A DNA stretch of 64,000 nt. It comes from a virus (lineage: Duplodnaviria > Caudoviricetes). The DNA lies in the IMG/VR virus record IMGVR_UViG_3300023179_000059, positions 1 to 64,000 of that record. One strand, given 5' to 3'. Positions within the stretch are counted from its first letter, which is position 1. Each line of letters opens with the position of its first letter. The notes beneath the pieces were generated by a model. It saw nothing but the letters and a program-made list of their open reading frames with translations. It did not search any database and was not told the DNA's origin. Shown here piece by piece: positions 1,329-29,164 of the stretch. Both the position numbers and the translations under genes were made by a program.

Positions 1329-2252
1329 ATGGCTATTAAATCACAGGCTCAATTAACATCAGATATACAAACACGCTTGGCAGACAATAACGCTGGATTA
1401 ATTTCAGCCGCCGACGTTAGAGAAAATATGGTCAACATCGTTGACTCTATTAATGTAATTGTTGGTAGTGGTAATTTTGATAGTCAAACTCCATTTACCG
1501 CTGCAAACGTAAGAGCAAAAATTGTAAATAGTCAATATGGTTTATTTGTTGCTGAATCCGGTGTTAATTTTCCAAATGGCGGTGGAACGCAATACGTTCC
1601 ATATCCCGGCCCACAAGGAATTTCACACACAGGTATAGCAGATTTAACAGTTGGCAATCCACACACACAATATTTACATGTTAATGGCTGGAACAGAGTA
1701 ACCGGCAATTTGCCAATGGGTAATAGATGGATAAATTCTAGTGGCAATATTGATCAAGCAAATACAACATTTAACGATAGAGGATTTAAGTTTACATATG
1801 TAGATAGCAACAATGAAACTATCAGTGTTGGCAATAAGTCTACAATGAACTTTGATGTCGATAATTCAAAAATATTTAGTGCTAAAGGTGTAGCGCAGGC
1901 ATGGATTAGATTTCAAGGTACATCTGGTAATTTAGTAGTAAATTCATCTTATAATGTATCTGGAATTCATCATATAAATAATGGTTACTACAAAGTATTC
2001 TTCAAGCCATTAACATTCAACGATGCCACATATCTTGCCCTTGGTAATAGTAATAGCACAACTGGCTCTGGTTCTCCACAAGACTTTGACTTAAATACCG
2101 TTGGTATTATAGAAAGAACAAAAGACTATCTAACATTTGTAGTTAGAAATGATAATGGAGAATATGTTAATGCTAGAGTCAACGATCTAGTAGTATATGG
2201 TAATGCTAGCGGCGTAACCGCATCCAGTTCACCAACAATAGTAAACATATAA
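1329..2252 (+). CDS. Virion structural/fibre protein
   Basis: SD AGGAGG; LADNNAGLISAADVR, PHTQY and AQAWIRF..G....SSYNVS motifs common in phage fibre/decoration proteins. Confidence 0.55.
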   Translation: MAIKSQAQLTSDIQTRLADNNAGLISAADVRENMVNIVDSINVIVGSGNFDSQTPFTAANVRAKIVNSQYGLFVAESGVNFPNGGGTQYVPYPGPQGISHTGIADLTVGNPHTQYLHVNGWNRVTGNLPMGNRWINSSGNIDQANTTFNDRGFKFTYVDSNNETISVGNKSTMNFDVDNSKIFSAKGVAQAWIRFQGTSGNLVVNSSYNVSGIHHINNGYYKVFFKPLTFNDATYLALGNSNSTTGSGSPQDFDLNTVGIIERTKDYLTFVVRNDNGEYVNARVNDLVVYGNASGVTASSSPTIVNI

Positions 2253-7684: not shown

Positions 7685-8016
7685 TGGAAGATTATAAGAA
7701 AATAAGAGAGTCAAAATATAAGTTAGATTCTAAAGATAGACTATCTAAAATTTTGAAAAAGAAAATACAAACAACTATGATTGGCGCACTTAGTACTATA
7801 GAAGATAATTTTGGATTTTTGTGGCAAACAAAGGATGGCAAACTCACAAAAGAACAAGAATTAATGAAAGATCTATATAACAAAGTAAGATCTGAAATAT
7901 TAGATAAGGGCAATAATCAAGCTAGAAATATAGACGCAGAACTTTCTCAATATGAAGTTGAGTGGCTAAGATATTCGATGAAGATACCAGTTATTTCACC
8001 TAATGATAAGGAGTAA
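7684..8016 (+). CDS. Hypothetical protein (tail assembly region)
   Basis: ORF coupled to the upstream gene; SD AGGAGG. Confidence 0.5.
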   Translation: MEDYKKIRESKYKLDSKDRLSKILKKKIQTTMIGALSTIEDNFGFLWQTKDGKLTKEQELMKDLYNKVRSEILDKGNNQARNIDAELSQYEVEWLRYSMKIPVISPNDKE

Positions 8017-8019
8017 ATT

Positions 8020-8847
8020 ATGAAGGACAAGGAAAAGACAGTAGACGTTAAAGTCACAGATGCTAACGGCGAAAAGACAGTTAAGATTGTTGTAAAGCGT
8101 CCAAACAACGCATTACTTTCTCAAGCACAGAGATTGAGCGCAAAAGTGTGGACAGACTGTGTGCGTGATGGAATTATGACTAAGAAAGAACTTGAAAAGT
8201 TTATGAAAGAGCAGGATATTTGGAATAACGACAAGGATGTTGAACAAAAAAAGATTACTGAAGAAATCAGTAGACTTGAAAAGGAATTATATGTTAGTGG
8301 CAAAAATGGTAAATTACGCGCAAGTGAAGGTAAAAATATTGCCATTGACATGAGAAGAAAACGTATAGAATTGCGCGAACTTATTGCTGAAAGAATGAGT
8401 CTAGAACAAAATACGGCAGAATCATTATCTGACAATGCCAGATTTGATTTTCTAGTAGCAAACTGCACATTTCATGAAAATGGCAATAAGGTGTATAATA
8501 ATTTAGATGAATATACTGCAAATTCGGATAGTGAAATTGCCTTTGCGGCAGCAACCGCACTGGCCCAAATGATGTATTCTGTAGACAAGGATTTTGAATC
8601 TAAACTACCAGAAAATAAATTCCTTAAAATGTTTAACTTTGTTAACGATGACTTAGCATTAGTTAATGATAAGGGAGAAAGGGTAGATACAGAAGGTCGA
8701 AGAATAGATGAATTTGGATATTATGTAAATGAAGAAGGAAAACGTGTAGATAAAGATGGAAACTTACTTGACGAGAATGGAAATTACATTCCTTCAGTCA
8801 CGTATGTAGACGATAAGGGAAAGAAGCTGAGTATTAAAGACGAATAA
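8020..8847 (+). CDS. Putative tail assembly chaperone
   Basis: Directly upstream of TMP; KIVVKRP..ALLSQAQR pattern; SD AAGGAG. Confidence 0.45.
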   Translation: MKDKEKTVDVKVTDANGEKTVKIVVKRPNNALLSQAQRLSAKVWTDCVRDGIMTKKELEKFMKEQDIWNNDKDVEQKKITEEISRLEKELYVSGKNGKLRASEGKNIAIDMRRKRIELRELIAERMSLEQNTAESLSDNARFDFLVANCTFHENGNKVYNNLDEYTANSDSEIAFAAATALAQMMYSVDKDFESKLPENKFLKMFNFVNDDLALVNDKGERVDTEGRRIDEFGYYVNEEGKRVDKDGNLLDENGNYIPSVTYVDDKGKKLSIKDE

Positions 8848-8897
8848 TCTGCGGATAGTTATGGGGTCAATTTACTTCAAACTAACTGTAGGTTAAT

Positions 8898-11800
8898 ATG
8901 TCAAGATTTGTATTAACTGCACAACTACAACTACAAGCACCAACAAATACTGCTCAAGTTGTTAGGCAGATACAGAGTCAGCTTAATAATGTTCAAGTAA
9001 ATGTTCAAGTACAGGGTACGGCCCAAGCTACGCGACAGGTTCAACAAGTCGCCCAATCTTTAAATGCCGCAAACTCAGCGGCTTCAAACTTGGGCCGTAC
9101 CTTTGCTATTTCAGTAAAAAGATTTACGGCTTTAGCTGTGGCAACTAGGGCCGTTAGTCTATTTACTAATACTTTATCTAATGCAGTAAATGAAGCAATT
9201 GACTTTGAACGTCAGTTAATTAAAGTCGCTCAAGTAACAGGACAAACTATTGGTGAACTAAGATTTTTGACTAAGTCTATTACTGATTTATCTACTGGAC
9301 TTGGCGTTTCATCAAAAGATTTACTTAACACATCGCAGTTATTATTACAGGCCGGTGTTAGTGCTAGAGATACAGAAGTAGCACTTAAAACATTAGCCAA
9401 GGCAGCACTTGCCCCAAACTTTGATAGTCTTAGTGAAACTACTGAAGGTGCTATTGCTATTTTAGCACAATTTCAAGAAGGTGTCGGTTCTTTAGAAGGT
9501 CAATTAAGTTCTATTAATGCTGTTGCTGGCGCATTCGCGGTAGAAGCTGGAGACTTAATTGACGTTATTCGTAGAACTGGTGGTGTGTTCAAAGCTTCTG
9601 GTGGTAGTCTTAATGAATTAATTGCATTATTTACAAGTGTAAGAGCAACTACGCGAGAAAGTGCAGAAAGTATTGGTACTGGTTTGCGTACAATTTTTAC
9701 ACGTATTCAACGCCCCAAGACAATTGAGTTTTTAAAACAATTTGGCGTAGAACTTGTTGATCTTGAAGGTAAGTTCGTTGGCCCATTTGAAGCAGTAAGA
9801 CGATTAAGTGAAGCACTAACCGGTTTAGGTGAACGTGATATTACATTTATTCGTATTGCTGAAGAGCTTGGTGGATTCCGTCAGATTGGTAAAGTATTAC
9901 CATTACTACAACAATTTAAAACTTCACAAGAAGCTCTTAATGTTGCACAAAAAGCTGGAACCGGTTTAACAAAAGACGCGGAAACTGCACAACAAGCACT
10001 AGCCGTTAGAATTACTAAAGTACAAGAAGAATTCCTTGCTCTTGTTAGAGCGATCACTGAAACAAGTTCATTTCAATTTTTTGCCAATACTACTCTTAAT
10101 CTTGCTAGTGCTTTAATTAAACTTGCAGACGCACTAAAGCCAATTATTCCATTGTTAACAGCAGTTGCTACTATTAAATTAGCCAGAGGACTTAGTAGTT
10201 TTGTTGGTGGATTTGGTAGAGGTATAGGTTCTGGTAGAACATTTAATAAGGGTGGAAAAGTACTTGGTTTTGCTAGAGGTGGAATGGTTCCCGGTACTGG
10301 AAATAGAGATACTGTTCCAGCAATGTTACAGCCCGGTGAATTTGTTATTAGAAAGAGTAGTGTTAATAAACTTGGTGCTGGTAATTTAGCGGCTATGAAT
10401 CAGAATAGATATGCCAAAGGTGGAAAGATTAATATAAAACCGGGAGCTATAGGTGGATTTTTCTTACAACCAGAAGAAGGCATTGATAGAAAGGGAGTAT
10501 CTGTCAATCAAATGGTACAAGTTAGGGGTGTCAAAGCTTTAAACGCTTTGGGTGCTATTGATCCTAATGATCCAAAATTAAGAGCTGAAACATTTGAGTC
10601 TGCTACTATTGCACAGCAAGCTAAAATTTTAGGTGTAAAAAAGTTAAATTCTAAAGTACCGAATAAAGTTTCTATTGGTGGTGGAAAAAAAAGAAATACT
10701 TTTACGCCAGATGGAGAATTTGCAAAAGGCATAGGATTAAATGCAGACGAACAAGCTAATAATAGATTAACCAAAAGAATTACTTCTGGAAAAATTAAAC
10801 TTAGTAAAGATTCTAAATTTGCAAAAAATGTTGAATTATCTGGAAATATAACTAGTTATTTTCCGGGTGGATCGGATATGAAAAAAAATTCTGATGTTGC
10901 CAATATAGTTTCTCAAGCCACATCTAATGCTTTAAGTCAAGCTGTTAAAGTAGCAGCTAATCAAACAAAATCTATTTTTGCAAATAATCGATCAATTCGC
11001 CCAACAGATGCTGGAATAGACTCCGCATCTCAAAGAATAGCTACTGATTCTAACGCTACAAAAACCACAGAGGGCTTCGTTTTTGAAGGTTTAATTCAAG
11101 GAATTACTGGCGCTCAATTAGCTGGAGGTCAGTCTAATTTTGATTTTCCAGCAGAGTCTATACGCAATAGCAGAAAATCTTTACAGGCTATGTTTACAGA
11201 TAGCTCTGGCGAAGGAATGGATAGTTTAATTAAAGCCGACGCTAAACGTACTAATACACCAGATAATATAGAAAGTATAGTCAATAAATTAGTAAATGAT
11301 ATCAATAAAGGAAATTTGCTTGGTGTAAATTTTGAAAAATTTGCCTCTGGAGGTAGAGCCAAGGGCATACTTCCAAGACCAAGTGCTATTAATGATATTA
11401 TTAAATCTGGTGGTGGATATGTTGATATTGATCGTACTTTATTAAGAACAGTTGGTGATATCGCTTACGGTAAAGCTAGAACAGAACAAGAAAAACAAGC
11501 TGTACTACAAAAGTATTTCTTAGATCCAGTTGCAAGATTGAAAGATATTAAATCTGTTGGATTAACACAATTTGGTAAGCAACTTCAAACCTCAATAAAG
11601 TCTGGTCAAATACAGGGTTCTAGATTAAGAGTTCTTAGTAAGTCTACAGAAGTACCCGGTGTTCGTTCTTATCTTAGTGGATTGTTTGGAATACCACCCG
11701 GAAATATGAGATTTACTGCTGGTGGAAGTAAAGTTCCATTCATGCGTAATCGTGGACCACTTGTTGATGATATTACTTCTAATGCACGATTTGCTTCTGG

Positions 11801-14800
11801 AGGTTCTGTCGGCACAGATACCGTTCCAGCACTATTAACTCCCGGTGAATTTGTTGTAAATAAAAAATCTGCTCAGTCAATTGGCTATGGCACTTTAGGT
11901 CGAATGAATAAAGTTGGAAAATATGCTAAAGGTGGTGTTGTTCAAAAATTTGCCACTGGTGGTCAAGCACAGGGAAATGGTGGCAATTTATTTGGTGGTA
12001 TTGGCTCACAACTAACACTTGTTACAGCAAGTTTACAGGCACTAATTCCACCAATTGACGAAAATAGTAGCGCGACAGCAAAATTAACTAATAACTTTTT
12101 AAGTCTAGCAACAACTGTTGGTGGAGCTATTTTTGCATTAGAAGCTTTTGGACTTACAATTAATAAAGAACTTATTGGTAAAGTATTTAAATCGTTAGGA
12201 AGTGGCAAAGGGGGTCTTGGGGATATTATTGGAGGATTTCAAAGACAGGGTGGAAAGACTACAAGAACAACTGGTGAAAGTATTGGTGAAGCTTTTAGTA
12301 TTTCCAAAGAGCGTAGTAAAAGAGCAAAAGATTTATTAGCTGCTAGATCTGCTAGAAAAAGTTCACCATTTCAATTAGGTAGCAGTAGAGATTGGTTGGA
12401 TCAACTTAAACAAGAAACAACAGATTTAAATCTAAGACGAGCAAAACCAACAAGTTTAACTGGAAAACTTGGACAATCTTTGGGAAGAAATGAAACTTTT
12501 GTTAAAGCAAGTGAGCTTGCTCAATCTGCCAGTACTAAACTTAGAAAAGGAACTACTAAAGCTAGAGATTTTCTTGGTCAATTACCCGGTTCTGATATTG
12601 ATATTGGAGATATATTTGGAAGATTTAAAAAAGGAGTAAATCTTGGTTCTACTGGTCAATTTTCACTAAAAAATATAATATCTGGTCAAGGAGGAAATGG
12701 TGGAATAGCTGGTAGATTAGGTGGAGTTGTTGGCAGAGGCGCTGGAGCAATTGGTGGTGCAGTTAGCAGGGGTGCTGGATTAGCTGGAAACGTTCTTAGT
12801 AGAATACCCGGAGCCGGTACTGTTGGTAGATTTGCTGGTCGTGCTAGTGGAGCAATTGGTGGAGCAATATCTGGTGTCGCTTCTGGTGGAATTGGTGGAG
12901 TTGTTAGTAGTTTAACAGCATTAGCTGGACCATTAACAGCGATTGTTGGATCAGCAACACTTGTTTCTGGAGCTTTTAACGCAGTAGTTTCTAGTTTATA
13001 TGATTATGATACACAGTTAAAAAAGGCAACAGAAAAGGGAGACGTTCAAAAGGCTGGTGAAATTGCTGGAAAACAATATGATCTAGAAGCCGCCAACAGT
13101 TTAAGAACTGGTGGAGCATTTGTTGGTGCTGCTATTGGAACATTTTTTGGTGGTCCAATTGGTTCTGCGATAGGAGCAGCTATTGGAACTGGCCTTGGTA
13201 CATTAATTGCAAATTTACCATTTGGAGATAAAATATCAGAATTTGTAAACGTTTTGTTTGGTGGTAAAACAAAAGAAAGCACCATAGCATTAGCACAAGC
13301 ACAAGCGCAATTAGTAAAAACGTCACAAGAATTACAAAAAGCTGAAAAAACTACTGCTGATAGTATAAAAGAATTCGAAGATGGTACAATTAATGCTGCT
13401 GACGCTATGCAACGTGTTATGGTGGCAACAGCATCCGCCGAAACATTAAGACAAAGTACACAAACGGCAGTTAATAAAAATCTAGAGAATAAATCTACTG
13501 GCTTTGGGGCTGGCGTTAGAAACACTTTAGCTCTTGGTGGACTCAATCCTTTTTATGAAACTGCTGGAGCAAGAAATACAAAAATAGATGAAGAAAACGC
13601 TAAATTAGTTGCTGGACAGCAAGAACAGATTTTAAAAGCTAATCAATTGAGAACACAAGCCGGTTTAGCTACAGCTAGACCAGAGATTTTATCAGCTATT
13701 TCTCAAGGAAAAACACCAGAACAGGTAAAAGAATCGTTAATACCACAGAAGAAAGTATTAGACGATATAAGAAAACAAGCATTAGAAACAAGACAGCAGG
13801 CTTTTTCAGCAGAAAAGCGTGGAGATACAGAAACAGCTTCTAAATTGAAGGAACAGGCAGATGCATTAAGAGAACAAGCAAATGATTATGAAAAAAGTAT
13901 TGATAACTTAATAAAAGAGCAAACAAGGCTTGAAAAATCATTAAAAGCTTTAGATTTAGGATTAAGAGGCCCAACGGCAACAGCATCTGCGGCAGCAGCA
14001 CAATTAGAATATTTTGCATCTCAAATTGAAGGAACAGCACTTCCAGCCGTTGGCGCTTTAGGATTATTAGAAGCTTCATTTACTTCTGCTGGCAATGCAT
14101 TAGATAGAACATCTTTAGCTGAAGCTACTAATAGTGTAGTTCAAACTTTACAAGAAGTTGGCGCAACAGCTAGTAGTATAGATAAATTTAAAAATACAAC
14201 AGAAAGTCTTAATACAGTTCAGTCTAGATATGCTAGCGTAGCAGCAGAAATTGCGGCAGAACAAAAGAAAAGTGGCAAAGCATTATCAGCAGAACAGGTG
14301 CGAGATAAATTTGCAGAAAAACTTGGCGAAGGAATGCCAGATGAAATTAAAGATCTAATAAATGGTATTGAATTAACCGACGAAATTAAAAATCAAATTG
14401 CTAGAGGGGATTATAGTGGAATTGGAGATGCAATAGGTGAACAGGGTAAAAAATTATTAGAACCAATACAAAAAATTGTACAAGACTATCAAAAAGCAAA
14501 TCAAGTAGTCATAGATCTAACCAAGAAAAGGATAGATGCTGAAAGAAACTATGTTGCTTCTATAAAAGAAGCGCAAGACATAATAATGGAAGGTAGAGAA
14601 ATACAAGCTAAATATGGCGGTGCTGCTGTAACACAAGAAGAAAGACGGGGATCAATACTAAAATCAGCTAATGCTGCCAATAGATTAACTGGATTAAATG
14701 AATTAAGAACTGGAAGTGCGGCAGAACTTAATGCTAGAAGCAAACAAATAAATGCAGCATTTGCTCAAAATCAAAGAAGAATAGCTGGCGGGGAAGGCGC

Positions 14801-15998
14801 TGGAAAAGCTGGTGGAGAACAATTAAGACAACAACAAGAAGACTTAAAGAACGCACAAAAACAACAAGTAGAAACTATTAGAAGTTTAATTAAACTAGAA
14901 GAAGAAAATCTTAGACTTATTGGAGAAAAAAATAAGCTTGAAAAAGATTCTGTTGATGCTCTTGTTAGTGGAGATATTGATAAGTTTTTTGAACAACAGG
15001 CAGCAGCAGGAGCGCAAGCGGCAATTGCTCTTGGCTCAGAAAGATTGCAAGGAGCTTTTGGTGCTAATGCACTAGGCGCAGCCGCACAAGATATTAAGAG
15101 ACAACAAGAGGCTGGACAACAAACATTATTTGGACAACAATTAGCTGGTCCCGGCGGATTGACAGAAAGAGCGTTTGGTGCAGCAATAGGTGCTAGAGGA
15201 ATTACTGATCCAAGATTAGCACAGGTTGCGGCAGGAACAACTGCTGAAGAAAGTGCTGCACAAGCAAGATTAAGAGATTTAGGTGGAGCATTAGGAGAAG
15301 CTGGGCAATTAGGCGCAGACTTAGCACAAATGGAAGTAGCTCAAGCAACAATGAATGTACAACAAGCAGAAATTAAATTACAAGAAGTAATTGATCGTGG
15401 TAAACAAGCTTCTGCACAGGCTGAACAAGAAATGGGACAAGCAGTTGGTCGTAGACTTGGTGGTTTAATTTATGCTAATCGTGGAATTTTTGTACCCCGT
15501 GGTACAGATACAGTTCCAGCAATGTTAACACCGGGCGAGTTCGTTGTTCGTCGTGAAGCAGTACAGCGTGGCAATAATCTACAAATGTTACAGGCCATGA
15601 ATCGTGGATCAACTACTGGACAAAGTAGTATTGGTGGAGCTATTGGAATGGCGAATGGTGGCGTTGTAAATCAAACTCAATATTTAGCGTTTGGTGGTTT
15701 TGCAAAAGCAATTAATGGATTATTAGATGGTGATTTTATCAATAAATTATCTCAAACATTTAATTCATTTATGTCAGATATGAGTAAAAATATTGATAAA
15801 CTTAATTCTACTAATTTTAATATTAAACTAGACACTACTAATATAAATGTAAATCTTAATGGTGGAACATTCTTAAGTCAAATGACAGAACAGGTTAGAA
15901 GTGCCGTAATTCAAGAAGTTTCTAAAGAAATACAAAATTATTCTGCTGGAGAAGGCGGAAGATTAAGGAAAAATTCTGGCATTGTAAATAAAGGATAA
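8898..15998 (+). CDS. Tail tape measure protein (TP901-family core) with embedded cargo-like cassettes
   Basis: 2366 aa, Ala/Gly/Gln-rich; TP901-type core (AIDFERQLIKVAQVTG...GLRTIFTRI); glycine-zipper segments; position after chaperones. Confidence 0.9.
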   Translation: MSRFVLTAQLQLQAPTNTAQVVRQIQSQLNNVQVNVQVQGTAQATRQVQQVAQSLNAANSAASNLGRTFAISVKRFTALAVATRAVSLFTNTLSNAVNEAIDFERQLIKVAQVTGQTIGELRFLTKSITDLSTGLGVSSKDLLNTSQLLLQAGVSARDTEVALKTLAKAALAPNFDSLSETTEGAIAILAQFQEGVGSLEGQLSSINAVAGAFAVEAGDLIDVIRRTGGVFKASGGSLNELIALFTSVRATTRESAESIGTGLRTIFTRIQRPKTIEFLKQFGVELVDLEGKFVGPFEAVRRLSEALTGLGERDITFIRIAEELGGFRQIGKVLPLLQQFKTSQEALNVAQKAGTGLTKDAETAQQALAVRITKVQEEFLALVRAITETSSFQFFANTTLNLASALIKLADALKPIIPLLTAVATIKLARGLSSFVGGFGRGIGSGRTFNKGGKVLGFARGGMVPGTGNRDTVPAMLQPGEFVIRKSSVNKLGAGNLAAMNQNRYAKGGKINIKPGAIGGFFLQPEEGIDRKGVSVNQMVQVRGVKALNALGAIDPNDPKLRAETFESATIAQQAKILGVKKLNSKVPNKVSIGGGKKRNTFTPDGEFAKGIGLNADEQANNRLTKRITSGKIKLSKDSKFAKNVELSGNITSYFPGGSDMKKNSDVANIVSQATSNALSQAVKVAANQTKSIFANNRSIRPTDAGIDSASQRIATDSNATKTTEGFVFEGLIQGITGAQLAGGQSNFDFPAESIRNSRKSLQAMFTDSSGEGMDSLIKADAKRTNTPDNIESIVNKLVNDINKGNLLGVNFEKFASGGRAKGILPRPSAINDIIKSGGGYVDIDRTLLRTVGDIAYGKARTEQEKQAVLQKYFLDPVARLKDIKSVGLTQFGKQLQTSIKSGQIQGSRLRVLSKSTEVPGVRSYLSGLFGIPPGNMRFTAGGSKVPFMRNRGPLVDDITSNARFASGGSVGTDTVPALLTPGEFVVNKKSAQSIGYGTLGRMNKVGKYAKGGVVQKFATGGQAQGNGGNLFGGIGSQLTLVTASLQALIPPIDENSSATAKLTNNFLSLATTVGGAIFALEAFGLTINKELIGKVFKSLGSGKGGLGDIIGGFQRQGGKTTRTTGESIGEAFSISKERSKRAKDLLAARSARKSSPFQLGSSRDWLDQLKQETTDLNLRRAKPTSLTGKLGQSLGRNETFVKASELAQSASTKLRKGTTKARDFLGQLPGSDIDIGDIFGRFKKGVNLGSTGQFSLKNIISGQGGNGGIAGRLGGVVGRGAGAIGGAVSRGAGLAGNVLSRIPGAGTVGRFAGRASGAIGGAISGVASGGIGGVVSSLTALAGPLTAIVGSATLVSGAFNAVVSSLYDYDTQLKKATEKGDVQKAGEIAGKQYDLEAANSLRTGGAFVGAAIGTFFGGPIGSAIGAAIGTGLGTLIANLPFGDKISEFVNVLFGGKTKESTIALAQAQAQLVKTSQELQKAEKTTADSIKEFEDGTINAADAMQRVMVATASAETLRQSTQTAVNKNLENKSTGFGAGVRNTLALGGLNPFYETAGARNTKIDEENAKLVAGQQEQILKANQLRTQAGLATARPEILSAISQGKTPEQVKESLIPQKKVLDDIRKQALETRQQAFSAEKRGDTETASKLKEQADALREQANDYEKSIDNLIKEQTRLEKSLKALDLGLRGPTATASAAAAQLEYFASQIEGTALPAVGALGLLEASFTSAGNALDRTSLAEATNSVVQTLQEVGATASSIDKFKNTTESLNTVQSRYASVAAEIAAEQKKSGKALSAEQVRDKFAEKLGEGMPDEIKDLINGIELTDEIKNQIARGDYSGIGDAIGEQGKKLLEPIQKIVQDYQKANQVVIDLTKKRIDAERNYVASIKEAQDIIMEGREIQAKYGGAAVTQEERRGSILKSANAANRLTGLNELRTGSAAELNARSKQINAAFAQNQRRIAGGEGAGKAGGEQLRQQQEDLKNAQKQQVETIRSLIKLEEENLRLIGEKNKLEKDSVDALVSGDIDKFFEQQAAAGAQAAIALGSERLQGAFGANALGAAAQDIKRQQEAGQQTLFGQQLAGPGGLTERAFGAAIGARGITDPRLAQVAAGTTAEESAAQARLRDLGGALGEAGQLGADLAQMEVAQATMNVQQAEIKLQEVIDRGKQASAQAEQEMGQAVGRRLGGLIYANRGIFVPRGTDTVPAMLTPGEFVVRREAVQRGNNLQMLQAMNRGSTTGQSSIGGAIGMANGGVVNQTQYLAFGGFAKAINGLLDGDFINKLSQTFNSFMSDMSKNIDKLNSTNFNIKLDTTNINVNLNGGTFLSQMTEQVRSAVIQEVSKEIQNYSAGEGGRLRKNSGIVNKG
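10269..10424 (+). repeat. TMP DTVPAML-PGEFV module copy 1 (FARGG...YAKGG)
   Basis: Protein-level repeat; other copies at 11790-11963 and 15450-15698. Confidence 0.85.
11790..11963 (+). repeat. TMP DTVPALL-PGEFV module copy 2 (FASGG...YAKGG..FATGG)
   Basis: Protein-level repeat visible in the translation. Confidence 0.85.
15450..15698 (+). repeat. TMP DTVPAML-PGEFV module copy 3 (RRLGG...MANGG...LAFGG)
   Basis: Protein-level repeat visible in the translation. Confidence 0.85.
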
Positions 15999-16001
15999 TT
16001 A

Positions 16002-19000
16002 ATGGATTGTATTAATGTTCCAACATTGTCGTTAAGAAAATTAGCGCGTGGAAATATACGCGCAAAAGTTACAATGTTGCACAACTCTATTACTAGATTT
16101 AAGTCTATATCTAGTTTAAATAATAATAATGGAGTAATTCTTGGCACTAAATCTAAACTAAAATCTAGTTCTGATTTAAACGCAAAATTTATACACACAC
16201 TAAATCTTATTGGCCTTAAGCCAGAAAATAATGCTGATATTAGTGCGACTTTACTATTATCTGGAGTTTTTCACGCTACTTTAAAATCAAATTCACAACT
16301 ATCAATTCCATATACTGATAAACTTGGTGGATCTTTTTATTTAGAAGAATATAGAAATTTTAAATGTAGAGAAAAATTATATCCAACACAAGACATTATT
16401 ACATCATCTGGTAATAATTATTTTGTTAATGAAGATTTAGAAACTAGCGGTCTATATAATAGTATTGATGAGGGTATTTTTGCAAAACAGTATGATGATA
16501 AAAATACCTATATACAACCTTGGTCAACATATTCATCTGGTAACTTTAAATATACTTTTAATGTAAGTAATCCACTAGTTAGACCAAGAGAAAGTTTACT
16601 TCTAATACGTGCATCAGCCCCAAGACACAATGATTCTTCATTTACTACGCCAATATATAAAATAAATAATATTACATTTGAAGATCCTTCTGGAAATTTG
16701 ATTATCAAATATAAAGATTTTGTAATTCGCGGTGACGCTAATTATGATGAAGAATATGTTAATTTCGCTACATATATTACAGAACCAGAAATAAACAATT
16801 CTGCTCTAGACACTTGGGATAATAACTATCCAGTATTAGGAAGTGGAACATTTACTGGAAATTATAAAGTAAATATAGATATAACAATAGAATCTTTAGA
16901 TGATCCATTTGATGATGGTTATAATGAAGGATATAAAGATAGAAATACATTTACTATTATTGATCAAAGTGGAAATAATTATCTAGCTTTAGACGGTGCG
17001 CCACTATCAACACAAACACAGAATTTTATTAATCCAGAAAATACTTTACGAATAACAGCAATTGAATTATGTAATAGTGGAGAATTATCAAGTTTTAGAA
17101 ATAATTATGTTCCATTTTATACAGATGTTTTATCAACTGGATTAAGAATCACACGTAATATATTTCCTAGCCAAATATTAACAAATAATTCTTATACAGA
17201 TATATATCCATCATCTGATTCTACTTGGAGATACCAAGATTTTGAATCAAATATATATACAAATATTACAACTAGTGGAGCTAATAAATTAAGCCCAACA
17301 TTAAGAGACGACAGTAATGGAACAAATATAGAATTAATTTATTCATCCATACAAGATTCTGGTAAATTAAGATTAAAATTTTCTCATGAACCACCAGTAC
17401 CATACGATGGATATAGTGATGGAGCTTTTAGTTTTGGCTTATTAAGACAGGCTAAAGATTTTAATAAAGCTAAGTGGTCTAATATTACAGAAGCAGATAG
17501 TTTCTTTACTATAGATAAAGTAGATCTAGTTGTTGTAGCAAAAAAGGCTAATGGCAGTAGAAATTATAGCCTTGACGTTGTTGGATATAGTGATGATAAA
17601 TTACTGCACGTAACATCACAAGTTGGTGGATTTTTACAAAATTTAGAAAATTCTGGAATATCTACAATTCCAACATCTTCTGGTTTTAATTCAGTAGATG
17701 ATCTTGGAATTAGTTCAGAGGCATTATCAGATAAATATCAATATTATCAAAATAATTTAACCAATAACGATGGTGGCGACCATTATTTATTATCTACATA
17801 TCCAGTAATTAACAGTACAACATTTCAAGAATATACAATACCACTTAAGATATATGATGATAGAGTAGCGATTGGTCAATCTATAGACTACTCTATGAGT
17901 TCATATTTTGAAAATTTATATTTAGATATTTATCCAATACCAAGTGGCGCATCTATAGCAAAAATTAAATTAGTTGTTTCATATAAGCCATCCAACGGTT
18001 TAATGTTACATACTATTGGTCAAGCAGATAAAGAATTTACAAAAAGAATAGTAAGATTGCTACCAAACGGGGATACCGTTAATACTTCTGGATCTTTAAT
18101 AAATAATATTCCACACGGATATACTAGAGATAACACATTAAAAAATAATTATGGTCGTAGATGGAAAAAGGCCCACGATTCTTTATTTGCTGGACCATAT
18201 GATCCAAAAGAGTTTGATTTTAGTTTTTACAATCCACAAATGTATAGTCCATTCTTAAATGGATATTTTTCTTTTATTTATGATAGTGGAAACTCTATTA
18301 TAGCTGATTATTCATATAATAGATCTAGACTAGATACAGTTGTAAGTGGTTCATATATTGGAAATTATGATAAAGTAAATAATTTAGGTCTTAGATTTAA
18401 TTCTACATCTTTGTTTAGTCAATCTACTACAAATAAAACTATAGATTGGACAAGAATATCTGGCTATACAAATCACGAACTATATGGAAGAATAATTGAT
18501 AATTTTGAAAATGCTGTTCGTGTCTCTGGTGATCTTGGATATATTAATTTTGGTAATATTGTAACATCTAACGGTTTTGCTATTTATACAAGATTTAGTC
18601 CAGATATTAATATTAGTGGCGTTGCATATAACTTATGGAATTCTGGTGTTATATTTAGTAAGTATGATAATGGTAATAATCTAGAATTTATAGTTGGATT
18701 TAAAGATGGTAAACTAATTGGAACAGCCAGAAATAATACTGGTAATCTTGTATCTGTTAATGATTCTAAATATTATTATGAGTATACATATCCACTAGAT
18801 ATAATGTTGTCATATAATGAAAATGATAATAAACTTAGATTATTTACAGATTCACTAAGAGACACATCTACATCATTTATTCTACATAGTGGAAATAATA
18901 ATCTTACTTTTGGTTATAGTAGTGGTTCTGGTGTTGGTATAAATGGATTCCTAACTAATATTGGTATATCCACAAATAGTGGAATCAATATCTTATCTAG

Positions 19001-20561
19001 TGGAACCAAGAATATAACATCAAAACAATTGTTATATTCTGATTTAAATAATAATCTATATGATTCTATTAATGAACGTATAGATAATTGGCATCTAGGT
19101 GCATATAAAATATGTGCATTTAATCGTGAATATGATAGATTTACAAAGAGAGAAGGATCTGGTATTTTAGTTCATCATATTAACCATCACGGTTCTGGTT
19201 ATACGCAAACAACTGACTTAACTTTACCAACTGTAATAAATTCAAATGAAGTTGCGTATCATACACAAATAGAAAATGATTTTATAAGATTTAATCTACA
19301 AGATACTTCTGAAGCAAATCCAAACTTTTATTCTACATATCCTCGTATATGCAAGACACTACCAAGAGGATATAAATTTACAGAAGATGCATTTGTTGTA
19401 GATACAATAATAAATTATGAAACATATAATGATATTATTTGGTCTAATAATAATATTGGCCCAAAGTTAATTGTAAGTTTATATACCCCAAACAAAGAGC
19501 CAATTTCTTATCCAACAACTAATTATGGATTAATAAATAGGTATATTCATTATCTAAAGCCTTCTGGATGTTGGCAAACTATTAGTAGTAAATTTGATTT
19601 TAATAGTTTAATTGATGAATCAGAACCTTGGGCAAACTTTAATAAAGATCAATATTTAAATGAATTTAATCATAAATATTTTTCTAAAGATATTGATGAT
19701 ATGTTTTTACAATATGATTTAGTTTATCCATCTGGAAAATCTTTTGAATCTATATTAAAAATTTATGGTGTTAATGTTAGATTAGAAAATAGTCTCGTTA
19801 CATCTTCTGGAATTAATAATAATATTAATTTACGTGTAAGCGGAGAAAACGTTTCTAGAGAATATCTTAACCTAAATATGCCTAATATAGTAATTCCATC
19901 TAGTGCATATATTAATTTATATGCTAATGCTAATATTAGTGGAGTATCCTCTGGTATATTTAATTTATCATGTTCTGGAGCAGTACTATCTAGTGGATAT
20001 ATGCCACTACATAGTTTGACGATTGGATCATTATCTAATATAGATCCAATATTTGGATCTTTTGGTTCTACACCAAACTTTGGTTTTAATTTATATACTA
20101 GTGGTCAATTATTCAGAGAAGAAGATCTTTCCCTATTTATACAAAATAATCTTATTGATCAATCTTCTTCTGAAACAATTTCTTTAGTATCTTTCAATAG
20201 AAAAAATCTAGATTTTACTAATTCGTCATTAAATTTTAGAATTAGAGCTATAGCTAGTCCAACTAATAGATTGCCAAATGCAAGTTCCAATTTATATATA
20301 AAAGGTCCAGAAAATATACCAATAAATTCAAATTGCAACTTATATGTTTCTTCATTTGACCCAAGGATAATTAATGAACAATTATCATTATTTACTGTAA
20401 ATTTACCCATTTTAGATATAGAATTAGGTAACCAAGTAGTATATTGGAATAACAAAAATATAGGTGTAAATATAGATGTGAGCGACAATTCATACGCTTC
20501 TCTATCTGCAAACGATGAAATTCGTGGTGTTGAATTAATCTGTTATGGAGGATGTAATTAA
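16002..20561 (+). CDS. Large tail/virion protein with a LamG/concanavalin-A-like domain
   Basis: 1519 aa, N/S/Y-rich; LamG-like pattern FAIYTRF.P...GVIFSKY...LEFIVGF...LRLFTD...LTFG...GFLTNIGI. Confidence 0.55.
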   Translation: MDCINVPTLSLRKLARGNIRAKVTMLHNSITRFKSISSLNNNNGVILGTKSKLKSSSDLNAKFIHTLNLIGLKPENNADISATLLLSGVFHATLKSNSQLSIPYTDKLGGSFYLEEYRNFKCREKLYPTQDIITSSGNNYFVNEDLETSGLYNSIDEGIFAKQYDDKNTYIQPWSTYSSGNFKYTFNVSNPLVRPRESLLLIRASAPRHNDSSFTTPIYKINNITFEDPSGNLIIKYKDFVIRGDANYDEEYVNFATYITEPEINNSALDTWDNNYPVLGSGTFTGNYKVNIDITIESLDDPFDDGYNEGYKDRNTFTIIDQSGNNYLALDGAPLSTQTQNFINPENTLRITAIELCNSGELSSFRNNYVPFYTDVLSTGLRITRNIFPSQILTNNSYTDIYPSSDSTWRYQDFESNIYTNITTSGANKLSPTLRDDSNGTNIELIYSSIQDSGKLRLKFSHEPPVPYDGYSDGAFSFGLLRQAKDFNKAKWSNITEADSFFTIDKVDLVVVAKKANGSRNYSLDVVGYSDDKLLHVTSQVGGFLQNLENSGISTIPTSSGFNSVDDLGISSEALSDKYQYYQNNLTNNDGGDHYLLSTYPVINSTTFQEYTIPLKIYDDRVAIGQSIDYSMSSYFENLYLDIYPIPSGASIAKIKLVVSYKPSNGLMLHTIGQADKEFTKRIVRLLPNGDTVNTSGSLINNIPHGYTRDNTLKNNYGRRWKKAHDSLFAGPYDPKEFDFSFYNPQMYSPFLNGYFSFIYDSGNSIIADYSYNRSRLDTVVSGSYIGNYDKVNNLGLRFNSTSLFSQSTTNKTIDWTRISGYTNHELYGRIIDNFENAVRVSGDLGYINFGNIVTSNGFAIYTRFSPDINISGVAYNLWNSGVIFSKYDNGNNLEFIVGFKDGKLIGTARNNTGNLVSVNDSKYYYEYTYPLDIMLSYNENDNKLRLFTDSLRDTSTSFILHSGNNNLTFGYSSGSGVGINGFLTNIGISTNSGINILSSGTKNITSKQLLYSDLNNNLYDSINERIDNWHLGAYKICAFNREYDRFTKREGSGILVHHINHHGSGYTQTTDLTLPTVINSNEVAYHTQIENDFIRFNLQDTSEANPNFYSTYPRICKTLPRGYKFTEDAFVVDTIINYETYNDIIWSNNNIGPKLIVSLYTPNKEPISYPTTNYGLINRYIHYLKPSGCWQTISSKFDFNSLIDESEPWANFNKDQYLNEFNHKYFSKDIDDMFLQYDLVYPSGKSFESILKIYGVNVRLENSLVTSSGINNNINLRVSGENVSREYLNLNMPNIVIPSSAYINLYANANISGVSSGIFNLSCSGAVLSSGYMPLHSLTIGSLSNIDPIFGSFGSTPNFGFNLYTSGQLFREEDLSLFIQNNLIDQSSSETISLVSFNRKNLDFTNSSLNFRIRAIASPTNRLPNASSNLYIKGPENIPINSNCNLYVSSFDPRIINEQLSLFTVNLPILDIELGNQVVYWNNKNIGVNIDVSDNSYASLSANDEIRGVELICYGGCN

Positions 20562-23500
20562 TGGCTAAGTGTAATGATCAGCCAGTAATAACACATGACA
20601 CACAGTGGCAACCGCTACAATGTGTAGATGGTGGAATTTTTAGAGCGCAAAAAACTTATACAAATCTTGAAGCCAGCGGTTTTAATACCTCTATTGGATA
20701 TAGTGGTCATTTTTATGGCATAAGAAAATATACAGGATTAATACCATCATCACCATTCATATTAACAGTACAAGGAAGAACTGGCGATGGAAGTAGACTA
20801 GAAGTACCAAGAGAAATATATGAAATTGAGTATGGTAGCAATAATAATGTAGATTATTCTGGTATTAAATTAACTGCTAATTACGAGTATCCTTCTGGAA
20901 GAAACGAGAATGATAGATATGGTAAATCTGTAAGTGTTTGTAGCGATATTATGGCTATTGGTGCGCCATTTCATACATTATATGATGCTAGTGGATATCA
21001 ATTAAATAATGCTGGAGCGGTTTTTGTATATGATCGTTTACCAGCTCCATCTGGATATGATTGGTCAACTCAATATGATAAAGCACCTTGGTCATTTGTA
21101 ACAAAATTAACTCTTCCTTCTGGATATTTAAGAGACTATGTAGAAAGAGAAACTGATAAAGAAATTATATATCCATATAGTGCAAAAGAAAAAGTATGGA
21201 AAGTCGGTCAAGAGGGTAGACAGTTTGGACATTCTATAGATATATGTTCAACAAATAATTTAGCAGCTTCATTATTTGAAGACAAAAAAAATATTATAGT
21301 TGTTAGTGGCCCGAGTTGCGCTTGGTCTAGAACATTTGCTCCATTAAATGCAACAAACGTAAATGTTGCGTTATTTGTATTTACTGATGAATTTATTCCA
21401 GAAATAGAAGAAGGTATCTATCCAAACATAATAAAATATAATTATTCAACTGTACAAAACGCAATTAAAGACAAAGATATATTATTTAAATATTTTTGTG
21501 ATCCACCAGTTGCTTTTAATGTCAAGATTGTCATATGTGAAGGTATAGTCAGTTCCTCAAATAGAATTACATACGATTTTCCAGAGCCAAAACCATCTTT
21601 TGCCATTAAAAGAGTTATTGATAGACATTCATCTGATCGTCCCGGTTCTCAACAATTTATAGATATAGATAATAAAATATTTACAAATTTAAAAGAAGCT
21701 TTAGATATTGTGTTTCCATATGATAATACAAAACTAAATAATAATATTCCATCTATAATTGGTTTTTATATTGACGACAGTAGATCTTTTGGTGGACAGC
21801 AAGCTATACAACCAGCATTAAATAATTTTATATCTTATTATAAAGATTACTCATTTGCTAGTGGCTTGCAGGACTTTTTCAATTCTCCATCACAAGGATT
21901 TACAAAAATATTTACTGGAGAAGATGAAAACTGGGTTAGACAATCTATAGCAATATTAAATGAAGTATTGGATATAGATGTTATGAAGCAAAATGATACT
22001 TTTAAATTATTTGCCTCTGGCATTGGAGATTTTAATCCTAATCTAGAAGAATTTAATGATCCACCACCAAGCGGTGGTTGTGTTTATGTTTTTGAAAGAG
22101 AAAGTGGAGCTTGGAATTTAATTCAAACGATAGAATCTCCAACAACATTAAATAATGTACATCCAGACAGATTTGGTCATGCTGTAAAAATTAGTGATAA
22201 TGGAGAAGTTATTGGGATAGGATCGCCATATATAAATCAAGCATTAATGTTATATGAATATGATTCATCAGAAAAGAATAGATTGTATCAAAACATTGAA
22301 CCTTGGATATACCATAGAAAAGATTTAGATACTTCATTTGGTTATTATTATCAAATGTATGAAAGATATTTAGATCTTAAAGAATTATATGGACAGGCAG
22401 AAGCTTCAAAAATATTATATCTTGAATTAGATCAAACGTCAAAATACTTCGCAAGAACAGATTATAGTTATTGGGGATCAAATCCTATTAGTGAATATAA
22501 AAGAAAGTTTATATACTCTTATTCAAATATTCCAGTTGGAAATTGGGGATTTTTTATCAAAGATTTTGCTCCATTGTCTAGACTAGGATATAGTATTGGA
22601 TTAAGTGAGGATGGAAATATTTTTGCCGCAGGTGCGCCAACAGATAGTTTAAATGAATTTGATCAATCTGAATCATATTACGCACCTACAAGGCCACAAT
22701 ATAGTACTTGGCACTCATATGTAAATACTGGTGCTGTCAGAGTATTTGAATCAAGAAAGTATTTTCCACATAATTCTGTGATTGAATATGGAAAATTTGG
22801 AAATCTAGAATATGAAACTAGATTACCAGAACATACACCATTTTTTAATCATATGTCTGGTATATATACAAGCAGGGGCTTGAATTTTACCAAAACAGAA
22901 TTTACAGATATAGATATTCCGCAAGAAGCTGGATTAGTTTTTATAATAACTCCACAAGTAGATGCTTTAAGTGATGAAATATTAAATAATATTAAAAATT
23001 GGTTAGCTTTGGGTGATAGAAATCTTGTTTTAGTTGGTAATGATCCTATTTGGGAAAAGAATGGATTATATTTTGAATCAAATGAAATTATAAATAAAAT
23101 TTTATCTAGCTTATCATCTAGATTAAGAATTTTACCAGCTAGAAATAGATTTGAATCACTGCCAGATTTATGTCCATCATCAGTTAATTTATTACCATCT
23201 TTTAGGCCAACTAGTTCACTATCTACATATATTAAGCCACAAGATATGAGGGCTTATGGCGTTGGAGACATTAAGCCTTATCGTGTTGGTGCTAGTAGAT
23301 CTTATTCTTGTGAATCTGATAATAATGATCCACTATCATTATCATCTATCTTTGGACAAGATTTAACATATGGTTCAGCAAATACAAAATGTGAAATACC
23401 AATTAAGCATCTTGGTGATTTAAGATCTGAGTGGAAAGAATGGTGCATTGACCAAAGGGGAAATCCAAAAACATATCCAGTTAACTGGCCTTTATTTTTT

Positions 23501-29163: not shown

Positions 29164-29164
29164 T

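What the first reader, a model, noticed from the sequence alone, without database searches (positions are those of the whole stretch)
10242..15698. Tape measure protein as a cleavable polyprotein: [FYM]A-x-GG sites and DTVPAML-PGEFV modules frame cargo cassettes
Seen: FNKGG 10242, FARGG 10269, YAKGG 10410, FASGG 11340, FASGG 11790, YAKGG 11922, FATGG 11949, RRLGG 15450, MANGG 15648 and LAFGG 15684. Three ~50-80-aa DTVPA[ML]LxPGEFV modules are bracketed by these sites. Between modules 1 and 2 lie two non-helical, globular-looking cassettes (310 aa and 150 aa), each ending precisely in FASGG. Established: TMPs are often proteolysed and are ejected into the host, and phage polyvalent proteins deliver enzymatic effectors. 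Inference: GG-terminated sites are protease cut sites (deubiquitinase-like specificity), and the TMP is a swappable-cassette delivery vehicle for injected enzymes. Prediction at ~0.15 nm/residue: a tail of ~280 nm rather than ~350 nm if the cassettes do not measure length.
Basis: partly seen in the sequence, partly recalled or inferred. Interest (0 to 1): 0.9.

Follow-up and report, generated by a model that had tools for sequence, protein, structure and literature searches.

The report
Tape measure protein carrying swappable enzymes
The tail "ruler" protein of this uncultured lake phage carries two folded, enzyme-like domains fenced by a short glycine motif at which related phages swap such domains (one a true ADP-ribosyltransferase), so the tail probably brings ready-made enzymes into the host; whether the motif is cut is untested.

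Summary
Observation confirmed. ORF 8898-15998 (+) is a 2,366-aa TP901-type tape measure protein (TMP). All ten GG motifs sit in frame at the stated coordinates. [FY]AxGG occurs 6 times against 0.19 expected.

The three DTVPA[ML]LxPGEFV units are copies of one ~60-aa module. This module is homologous to lambda gpH residues 732-786, the glycine-rich region where gpH is cut to gpH* and gpHC; the site and protease there are unknown.

Between modules 1 and 2 lie two folded domains:
- F0 (aa 513-819) is predicted with pLDDT above 90 and has no known fold. E730 and D749 are invariant; K783 is nearly so. It is found almost only inside TMPs.
- F1 (aa 820-962) is HAD-phosphatase-like, with an invariant DxDRT.

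In about 180 relatives every cassette family ends in GGx[IV]Q[KR]FAxGG. Cassettes are added, dropped, reordered and replaced at that joint. One family is an ADP-ribosyltransferase with an intact R/STS/ExE signature.

The cargo-cassette architecture and its exchange are real. Cleavage after GG is unproven. No C1, JAB, NlpC/P60, C39, C48 or OTU peptidase was found in four complete related genomes. In T5 the known cut lies just before AEGG, not after GG.

The scan has found this pattern before on other DNA. It is a new variant of a known kind (enzyme-bearing TMPs such as P23-45 gp96).

The parts
8898..15998 (+). Tape measure protein gene, 2,366 aa plus stop
   Evidence: PF10145 at 87.7 bits, TIGR01760 at 97.9 bits, PHROG TMP families. 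The N-terminus MSRFVLTAQLQLQAP is conserved in 60+ relatives.
9273..9833 (+). PhageMin_Tail core domain (aa 126-312) within the conserved N-terminal 453 aa
   Evidence: N-terminal length is 442-462 aa in 95 relatives.
10101..10199 (+). Hydrophobic stretch (aa 402-434) followed by a Gly-rich run, just before module 1. Lambda gpH has the same order.
10257..10433 (+). Joint module 1 (aa 454-512): FARGG ... DTVPAMLQPGEFV ... YAKGG
   Evidence: Module HMM, 89 bits. Low pLDDT in the monomer model.
10434..11354 (+). Cassette F0 (aa 513-819), a globular domain of unknown fold ending in KFASGG. E730 (11085) and D749 (11142) are invariant; K783 (11244) is nearly invariant.
   Evidence: pLDDT above 90; conserved columns. 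No structural match. TMP-restricted.
11355..11783 (+). Cassette F1 (aa 820-962), HAD-phosphatase-like, with invariant D843-x-D845-R-T847. Its C-terminal joint FASGG (aa 965-969) is also the start of module 2.
   Evidence: invariant columns; model; Foldseek: all top hits are HAD phosphatases, E about 0.02, probability up to 0.95; VIA: AphA Z 4.8.
11784..11963 (+). Joint module 2 (aa 963-1022): FASGG ... DTVPALLTPGEFV ... YAKGG-VVQKFATGG
   Evidence: Module HMM, 88 bits. Low pLDDT.
12093..12161 (+). Hydrophobic segment aa 1066-1088
12681..13223 (+). Glycine-zipper and hydrophobic region (aa 1262-1442), the presumed membrane-channel part
   Evidence: Homologues carry PF13441 and PF13488 Gly-zipper hits here.
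13224..15464 (+). Long charged segment rich in A, E, K and Q (aa 1443-2189), the presumed ruler
   Evidence: The module 2-to-3 distance has a median of 1,167 aa in 95 relatives.
15465..15674 (+). Joint module 3 (aa 2190-2259): ANRGIFVPRGTDTVPAMLTPGEFV ... MANGG, at the position that corresponds to the module in lambda gpH
   Evidence: Module HMM, 83 bits.
15675..15995 (+). C-terminal tail (aa 2260-2366), the likely hub-binding end (compare lambda gpH 818-849)
   Evidence: C-tail length has a median of 107 aa; PMC10721106.

Best explanation
This is the tape measure protein of an uncultured freshwater siphophage of about 160 kb, built as a cargo carrier. The order of parts is: a conserved TP901-type N-terminal core; joint module 1; cassette F0, present in nearly all relatives and very divergent between them; optional cassettes (here the HAD-like F1); joint module 2; a glycine-zipper membrane segment and a ruler of about 1,160 aa; joint module 3; and a short hub-binding tail. 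Each cassette is an independent globular domain tethered by the peptide GGx[IV]Q[KR]FAxGG. That peptide and the ~60-aa module belong to the same element as the glycine-rich C-terminal region of lambda gpH. Shown: the architecture, the homology to gpH, the folded state of the cassettes, their enzyme-type conserved residues, and exchange of cassettes between phages at the joints. Inferred: the cargo rides in the tail lumen at the head-proximal end of the TMP. It leaves the tail before the DNA through the channel made by the TMP's own glycine-zipper part. It then acts in the host at the very start of infection, as the N-terminal virion RNA polymerase of P23-45 gp96 does. The joint is conserved too strongly to be a passive linker, so something probably recognises it. 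My odds are: processing site as in lambda and T5, about 0.4; docking site for a chaperone or the tube lumen, about 0.3; plain hinge or recombination boundary, about 0.3.
For: TMP identity. Module found 2-7 times per protein in about 180 homologues, always at aa ~454 and ~107 aa from the C-terminus. Module homologous to lambda gpH 732-786: a family profile scores 20.6 bits (E 1.6e-8 against gpH alone). A profile of only the window's three copies puts 8iyk_H gpH first in the whole PDB sequence set (E 0.0022, residues 732-784). Cassette families and shared joint. Joint logo from 232 non-redundant contexts: [KR] 81%, F 84%, [VA] at +2 90%. Exchange: in window versus L013, aa 1-505 are ~99% identical, F0 ~18%, then 99% again from KFASGG. 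Of 102 TMP pairs at least 95% identical over the N-terminal 400 aa, 57 have F0 identity x coverage below 40%. Folded cargo. Enzyme-like residues: F0 E730 and D749 invariant, K783 nearly so; F1 DxDRT invariant with HAD fold hits; relatives carry PF03496 with R/STS/ExE and a weak P-loop cassette. Precedents: P23-45 gp96 TMP-fused virion RNAP (PMC10770324); lambda gpH cut in this region, site and enzyme unknown (PMC12617516); T5 pb2 cut after R1127, which frees an enzymatic domain (PMC10038345), and that bond is followed directly by AEGG. A cut at lambda FATGG737 would give 80.1 + 12.2 kDa, against the paper's ~14-kDa released peptide.
Against: No virion, proteomic or activity data exist for any member; all are metagenomic. 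F0 has no recognisable fold or family, so 'enzyme' rests on two invariant residues and one nearly invariant one. The HAD assignment of F1 is weak (Foldseek E about 0.02; VIA Z 4.8, tied with CheY-like receivers). F0 hypervariability would also fit a host-contact or defence-evasion surface rather than an effector. Three copies of a 300-aa globular domain must fit in, or unfold for, a lumen of about 4 nm (my estimate). Nothing shows that cargo reaches the cytoplasm. T5 pb2 shows no significant sequence similarity to the module (z -0.7), so the T5 parallel rests on the motif only.
Confidence: 0.62

Rival explanations
1. One reading: a true polyprotein. Every [FY]AxGG joint is a protease site, cut after GG with deubiquitinase-like specificity. 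The TMP is then processed into free N-core, F0, F1, small module peptides and the ruler, either in the tail or in the host.
For: The joint is a conserved peptide of about 11 residues shared by unrelated cassettes and sits on a flexible tail after the last strand of F0. The module is homologous to the lambda gpH region where cleavage occurs. T5's mapped cut abuts AEGG. A cut at lambda FATGG predicts an 80.1-kDa N-terminal fragment.
Against: No peptidase of families C1, Prok-JAB, NlpC/P60, C39, C48 or OTU was found in four related genomes that are 98-100% complete (the OTU control rang nowhere, so that one is uninformative). Pfam found no peptidase in the tail genes. PHROGs named no function in the ten ORFs upstream of the TMP apart from one tail-fibre match. 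In T5 the cut is before A-E-G-G, not after GG. Cutting both motifs of a module would release odd 44-47-aa peptides. No gene split at a joint was found: the shorter hits are fragments or frameshifts. P23-45 gp96 works as a fused enzyme.
Confidence: 0.3
2. The joints and modules are docking elements that are not cut. They bind the tail assembly chaperone, the tube lumen or the tail terminator, or they oligomerise the TMP, and so hold bulky cargo in register during tail assembly.
For: The module core (PA..L.PGEFV...G.GNL..MN) is as conserved as the AxGG ends. It is disordered in monomer models, as expected for a segment that folds on a partner. Lambda gpH ~690-817 is unresolved in virions. The module also occurs internally in TMPs of cultured phages (Nodularia, Gordonia, Mycobacterium; 8zdo gp16 has two copies).
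Against: No partner was identified. This reading does not explain why every cassette, whatever its family, ends in the short joint without a full module.
Confidence: 0.25
3. The cassettes are not injected effectors. They are host-specific parts of the ejection machinery, for example contacts with inner-membrane or periplasmic host proteins, as with HK97 TMP-PtsG or lambda gpH-ManYZ. Alternatively they are decoys against TMP-sensing defences, and they diversify for host range.
For: F0 is near-universal yet extremely divergent between otherwise near-identical TMPs, a pattern typical of host-contact surfaces. F0 occurs almost only in TMPs. It has no enzyme fold match.
Against: E730 and D749 are invariant, and G726 and K783 nearly so, across 50 sequences with a mean column identity of 14%, which points to an active site. 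Sister cassettes are bona fide enzyme families (ART, HAD-like, P-loop).
Confidence: 0.2
4. The motif pattern reflects only the Gly-rich composition of TMPs plus repeated duplication, with no function.
For: The protein has 47 GG positions and 11.7% glycine.
Against: [FY]AxGG occurs 6 times against 0.19 expected, with 0 of 20,000 shuffles reaching 6. The motif is conserved at homologous junctions across proteins about 30% identical and across unrelated cassettes. The DNA at the two FASGG sites shares only about 15 nt.
Confidence: 0.03

Closest known systems
Lambda gpH tape measure protein and its maturation to gpH* + gpHC (PMC12617516; PDB 8IYK, PMC10721106)
   Same: The ~60-aa module is homologous to gpH 732-786. 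Module 3 sits at the same distance from the C-terminus. The order hydrophobic stretch, Gly-rich run, module is the same. gpH is cut in this region.
   Different: Lambda has one module and no cargo. This TMP has three modules, extra short joints and two globular cassettes. In lambda the site and protease are unknown, and the region is unresolved in cryo-EM.
Thermus phage P23-45 gp96, a 5,002-aa TMP with an N-terminal virion RNA polymerase (Chaban et al. 2024, PMC10770324)
   Same: An enzyme that acts in the host cytoplasm is part of the N-terminal portion of a TMP and is delivered at ejection.
   Different: It carries one fixed enzyme. No cassette array, conserved joint motif or exchange between phages is described, and there is no sequence relation to F0 or F1.
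Phage T5 pb2 processing (Linares et al. 2023, PMC10038345)
   Same: The TMP is cut during tail assembly between a hydrophobic stretch and an enzymatic domain. The scissile bond R1127|A is followed by A-E-G-G.
   Different: The cut is before AxGG, not after GG. Similarity to the module is not significant. The cargo is a C-terminal muralytic domain at the tail tip.
TMPs with embedded cell-wall hydrolase domains (reviewed in PMC6116005; SPbeta YomI)
   Same: A globular enzyme domain sits inside a TMP.
   Different: Those are peptidoglycan hydrolases for envelope penetration. Here the cargo families are ART, HAD-like, P-loop and an unknown fold, arranged as exchangeable cassettes.
Polyvalent proteins of phages and conjugative elements (Iyer et al. 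2017, PMC5512222) and MuF-toxin fusions (PMC7302621)
   Same: Large virion-delivered proteins that string together unrelated effector domains, ARTs among them.
   Different: Those are head or portal-associated proteins. The paper never mentions tape measure proteins. No MPTase or other processing peptidase domain was found here, and no shared joint peptide is described.
Sle1-type TMP-related reconfigurable effectors of actinobacterial contractile injection systems (PMC13277306)
   Same: A TMP-like scaffold with an exchangeable functional domain, loaded in a tail-like tube.
   Different: That is a bacterial CIS effector with a C-terminal functional domain, not a phage ruler with internal cassettes and joints.

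Membership tests
TP901-type phage tail tape measure protein (PF10145 / TIGR01760) | Profile match above the curated cut-off | tested here: met
   PF10145 scores 87.7 bits against a cut-off of 33.2. TIGR01760 scores 97.9 against 28.8.
TP901-type phage tail tape measure protein (PF10145 / TIGR01760) | Very long ORF in a tail gene block, with hydrophobic or glycine-zipper segments and a long charged segment | tested here: met
   The 2,366-aa ORF is followed by ORFs of 1,519, 2,284, 583, 112, 1,491 and 1,140 aa on the same strand. Hydrophobic and GxxxG runs.
TP901-type phage tail tape measure protein (PF10145 / TIGR01760) | Sets tail length and lies in the tube lumen | not testable with these tools
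   Needs virions.
Lambda-gpH-type processed TMP | Gly-rich C-terminal module homologous to gpH 732-786 | tested here: met
   (20.6 bits, E 1.6e-8 against gpH). (top PDB hit 8iyk_H, E 0.0022).
Lambda-gpH-type processed TMP | Proteolytic removal of a C-terminal fragment during tail assembly | not testable with these tools
   No proteomic data for this phage group.
Virus polyprotein with a dedicated GG-specific protease (adenain, Ulp1/C48, DUB-like, C39 double-glycine) | A cognate protease encoded by the virus | tested here: not met
   PF00112, PF14464, PF00877, PF03412 and PF02902 gave 0 of 5 related records, four of them 98-100% complete. PF02338 is uninformative because the control was silent. 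The window's own genome beyond 64 kb could not be reached. Divergent or host proteases are not excluded.
Virus polyprotein with a dedicated GG-specific protease (adenain, Ulp1/C48, DUB-like, C39 double-glycine) | Conserved cleavage motif at every domain boundary | tested here: met
   A conserved joint is present at all cassette ends. That it is cleaved has not been tested.
Polyvalent proteins (Iyer et al. 2017) | Several unrelated enzymatic or effector domains in one virion-delivered polypeptide | tested here: inconclusive
   Across the family: ART, HAD-like, P-loop and unknown folds. In this window: one HAD-like and one unknown domain. Delivery is not shown.
HAD phosphatase superfamily (cassette F1) | Motif I DxDx[TV] on a Rossmannoid fold, plus Ser/Thr, Lys and acidic motifs | tested here: inconclusive
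   D843-I-D845-R-T847, S-K-S and G-G-S-K are invariant in 14 sequences. All top Foldseek hits are HAD enzymes, but at E about 0.02. VIA Z is at most 4.8, tied with CheY-like receivers. No Pfam HAD hit.
PD-(D/E)xK nuclease fold (cassette F0; another first-reader note) | E...D...(D/E)xK residues on the restriction-endonuclease fold | tested here: inconclusive
   E730 and D749 are invariant and K783 nearly so, in that order. No structural match to any nuclease: Foldseek PDB found none, VIA best Z is 4.9 on a helical hairpin, and BFVD found none.
R-S-E ADP-ribosyltransferases (PF03496), cassette F2 of relatives, absent from this window | Profile match above the cut-off, with catalytic R, S-T-S and E-x-E | tested here: met
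   26.6-28.5 bits against a cut-off of 23.4. The motifs are conserved in 11 sequences.

The most novel reading that the evidence does not exclude
The [KR][FY]AxGG joint with its DTVPAML-PGEFV module is a general maturation signal of tape measure proteins. It would be the same signal that directs the still unmapped cut of lambda gpH (predicted at or beside F-A-T-G-G 733-737) and resembles the T5 pb2 cut (R|AEGG). In this phage group it would be multiplied, so that the TMP becomes a true polyprotein releasing several enzymes (ART, phosphatase, the unknown F0) into the host ahead of the DNA.
Probability: 0.25. Interest if true: 0.85.

Novelty: new variant of a known kind. Interest (0 to 1): 0.62.

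Why it matters
TMPs are mostly treated as rulers and channel formers that sometimes carry a cell-wall hydrolase. One case of a TMP-fused cytoplasmic enzyme is known (P23-45).

This window belongs to a large environmental family. More than 2,500 homologues matched in one search, and F0 alone spans 327 clusters at 50% identity. In this family the TMP has a defined slot where unrelated enzyme domains are exchanged by recombination at one conserved joint.

That would make the tail lumen a second route, besides the capsid, for delivering changeable early effectors such as ADP-ribosyltransferases. It would also add a locus to the arms race with host defences.

The homology of the joint module to the lambda gpH cleavage region gives a concrete, testable prediction for a 50-year-old open point: where and how gpH is cut. 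F0 is a confidently folded, widespread, TMP-only domain with two invariant residues, a third nearly invariant one, and no known fold.

Tried and rejected
- **Fold of F0.** Foldseek against PDB, VIA-align against 48,161 PDB chains (best Z 4.9, helical hairpin only), BFVD and the ESM Atlas gave no usable match.
- **Free-standing forms.** A search among shorter proteins and a full profile search of 1.84 billion proteins found F0 or F1 only in TMP-length proteins or in fragments and frameshifted pieces. There is no evidence of genes split at a joint.
- **Protease hunt.** No Pfam hits in the seven downstream tail ORFs except FG-GAP. PHROGs named none of the ten upstream ORFs except one tail-fibre match. 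Family searches of five related virus records were all negative.
- **Papain-like gene beyond the window.** Another scan note reports such a gene beyond the window's end.
- **Homology with T5 pb2.** Rejected: local alignment z is -0.7 and the module HMM gives E 0.67. Only the AxGG next to the cut is shared.
- **Cargo versus ruler length.** A negative correlation (r -0.38) vanished once three outliers were removed (Spearman 0.00).
- **Cultured relatives.** The Nodularia phage TMP has partial internal modules but no F0. No GenBank phage matches more than the N-terminal core or the module.
- **Literature.** Searches for TMP with ADP-ribosyltransferase, with polyprotein, or with the PGEFV motif found no description of this architecture.
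Full report
**1. What is in the sequence**

ORF 8898-15998 (+) encodes 2,366 aa without a stop. It is a tape measure protein:
- PF10145 covers aa 126-312 at 87.7 bits.
- TIGR01760 covers aa 89-388 at 97.9 bits.
- Nine PHROG TMP families match.

More than 60 relatives share the N-terminus MSRFVLTAQLQLQAP, which fixes the start codon. GG alone is common here (47 positions). The specific [FY]AxGG occurs 6 times against 0.19 expected, and none of 20,000 shuffles reached 6.

**2. The module**

A profile built from 303 non-redundant instances finds a ~60-aa unit 2-7 times in each of about 180 homologous TMPs. Its consensus is kFArGG-lvpGt-DTVPAMLTPGEFVv-...-iGlgnLaamN-..-kYAKGG. The flanking [FY]AxGG motifs are therefore parts of the module, not separate sites.

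Positions are fixed in 95 three-module proteins:
- Module 1 follows an N-terminal part of 442-462 aa.
- Module 3 lies a median of 107 aa from the C-terminus.

The module is homologous to lambda gpH 732-786 (HFATGG...GEFVFTKEATSRIGVGNL...YATGG):
- The family profile scores 20.6 bits, E 1.6e-8 against gpH alone.
- A profile of only this window's three copies ranks gpH (8iyk_H) first among 177,635 PDB sequences, E 0.0022, residues 732-784.

This is the glycine-rich region in which gpH is cut to gpH* and gpHC of about 14 kDa. The site and the enzyme are unknown, and gpH ~690-817 is unresolved in virions (PMC12617516). PMC10721106 models only residues 818-849. A cut after FATGG737 would give 80.1 + 12.2 kDa. 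In AlphaFold2 monomer models, modules 1 and 2 have low confidence.

**3. The cassettes in this window**

*F0 (aa 513-819).*
- It is predicted as a compact alpha/beta domain with pLDDT above 90 and pTM 0.78, from a 51-sequence alignment.
- It ends in a strand followed by the flexible KFASGG.
- No solved or predicted viral structure matches it, and the ESM Atlas gave nothing.
- Across 50 sequences with 14% mean column identity, E730 and D749 are invariant and G726 and K783 nearly so. These are the residues another first-reader note read as PD-(D/E)xK. The residues are confirmed; the fold is not.
- A profile search of 1.84 billion proteins finds F0 in 327 clusters, almost all TMP-length with F0 at about aa 500-800. 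The short hits are fragments.

*F1 (aa 820-962).*
- It folds with pLDDT 73-88.
- DxDRT, SKS and GGSK are invariant.
- All top Foldseek hits are HAD phosphatases: phosphoserine phosphatase, AphA, deoxyribonucleotidases and the Lem4 HAD domain, at E about 0.02 and probability up to 0.95.
- VIA gives AphA Z 4.8, class C acid phosphatases, and T4 PNKP phosphatase Z 4.2, tied with CheY-like receivers.
- The call is HAD-like, weak but consistent.

**4. The cassette slot across relatives**

A search with aa 430-1050 returned 2,551 significant TMP-length homologues from metagenomes, on contigs up to about 160 kb, with query coverage of 11-100%. I cut the interval between modules 1 and 2 at [FYMWL]AxGG and clustered the pieces. 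This gives families of constant length:
- F0: 172 pieces.
- F1: 75 pieces.
- F2: 12 pieces of about 212 aa.
- About a dozen rarer families.

The order varies, for example F1-F0, F1-F0-F10, or six cassettes in P0025.

F2 is an ADP-ribosyltransferase. PF03496 scores 26.6-28.5 bits against a cut-off of 23.4, and the match fills one cassette exactly. The R, S-T-S and E-x-E residues are conserved. F9 has weak P-loop matches.

Every family ends in the same joint. From 232 non-redundant contexts the joint reads GG-x-[IV]-Q-[KR] 81%-F 84%-A-x-G-G-x-[VA] 90%.

**5. Exchange between phages**

- The window and L013 are about 99% identical over aa 1-505, about 18% over F0, then 98-100% again from exactly KFASGG (aa 814) through F1 and module 2. 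They diverge again in the ruler.
- P0003 lacks F1 from one FASGG to the next.
- Of 102 TMP pairs at least 95% identical in the N-terminal 400 aa, 57 have F0 identity x coverage below 40%.
- The DNA at the two FASGG joints shares only about 15 nt. The motif is therefore kept at the protein level.

**6. Is it cut?**

*For cleavage.* The joint is conserved across unrelated cassettes. The module is homologous to the lambda cleavage region. T5 pb2 is cut after R1127 (PMC10038345), and in the T5 record that bond reads NSFVPR|AEGG. That is one of only two AxGG motifs in 1,219 aa.

*Against cleavage.*
- In T5 the bond precedes AxGG.
- T5 shows no significant similarity to the module.
- No C1, Prok-JAB, NlpC/P60, C39 or C48 peptidase was found in four related genomes that are 98-100% complete, nor in a fifth record that is 61% complete. 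The OTU search was uninformative.
- Pfam found no peptidase in the downstream tail genes, and PHROGs named no function in the ten upstream ORFs apart from one tail-fibre match.
- No gene split at a joint was found.

A host protease, an unrecognised phage protease, or self-processing all remain possible. I put cleavage at some joints at about 0.3-0.4.

**7. Mechanism**

By analogy with lambda and T5, the C-terminus lies at the tail tip. The N-terminal third, with the cargo, is then head-proximal and leaves last, next to the DNA end.

The region aa 1262-1442 is a run of glycine zippers and hydrophobic segments. Homologues score PF13441 and PF13488 there. Such motifs are linked to membrane translocation, and TMPs are noted to share them (PMC10240207).

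P23-45 gp96 shows that an N-terminal TMP-fused enzyme can work in the host cytoplasm (PMC10770324). Delivery of F0, F1 or the ART is inferred, not shown.

The module 2-to-3 segment has a median of 1,166 aa in one-cassette TMPs and 1,160 aa in two-cassette TMPs (Spearman 0.00 after removing three outliers). Cargo is therefore added without compensation in the ruler.

**8. Novelty**

Already known:
- Enzyme domains inside TMPs: cell-wall hydrolases, and the P23-45 virion RNA polymerase.
- Processed TMPs: lambda and T5.
- Polyvalent proteins. That paper never mentions TMPs.
- TMP-like reconfigurable CIS effectors (PMC13277306).

Literature searches found no description of a TMP cassette slot with a conserved joint, or of an ART inside a TMP.

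The scan's own notes show the same pattern was found and followed up on several other genomes, with the same verdicts. I reached the lambda link on my own before reading them. I checked the P23-45 and T5 leads myself.

**Limits**

The papain-like gene reported beyond the window's end therefore remains unchecked.

Noticed in passing
window 16002-37388 (+): Six large ORFs follow the TMP on the same strand (1,519, 2,284, 583, 112, 1,491 and 1,140 aa). Only the 2,284-aa one has a Pfam match (FG-GAP repeats, 58 bits). The whole distal tail is otherwise unannotatable.
   Followed up: partly
window 1329-2252 (+): A 307-aa ORF upstream of the TMP matches a PHROG tail-fibre family (phrog_11355, E 1.3e-8). 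The other nine ORFs between 796 and 8847 match no PHROG.
   Followed up: no
window 8001-16000 versus 16001-36000: The TMP gene has 36-38% G+C against 27-31% in the following tail genes. This probably reflects its Gly/Ala-rich composition, but a different origin is not excluded.
   Followed up: no
PDB 8zdo_S (TMP gp16, 1,699 aa), residues 965-1009 and 1412-1450: A solved-structure TMP carries two internal module-like copies (A/YANGGFLSG.GTGRSDSMLARVSNGEFITR). Internal copies of the joint module are therefore not confined to this metagenomic family.
   Followed up: no
GenBank phages: Streptomyces phages VWB, SF1 and SF3; Synechococcus phages S-SCSM1 and S-SM2: The module also occurs in proteins annotated as endolysin, lysozyme or 'transmembrane protein' in Streptomyces siphophages and T4-like cyanophages. 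These are probably tail-lumen lysin-carrying proteins rather than true endolysins.
   Followed up: no
L091 (Nodularia phage vB_NspS-kac65v151), TMP of 3,282 aa: A cultured 147-kb cyanophage has two partial internal modules (aa 881-918 and 957-992) preceded by YAFGG, but no F0. It could serve as a laboratory model for testing whether internal modules are processed.
   Followed up: partly
P0025, P0016 and L057 (4,395 aa): Some relatives hold six cassettes or up to seven modules. L057 is nearly twice the usual length.
   Followed up: no
window aa 2186-2200 (15453-15497): The N-flank of module 3 reads ANRGIFVPRG and is nearly invariant in the family. It recalls the T5 cut site ANSFVPR|A by eye, but the similarity is not statistically supported.
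   Followed up: yes
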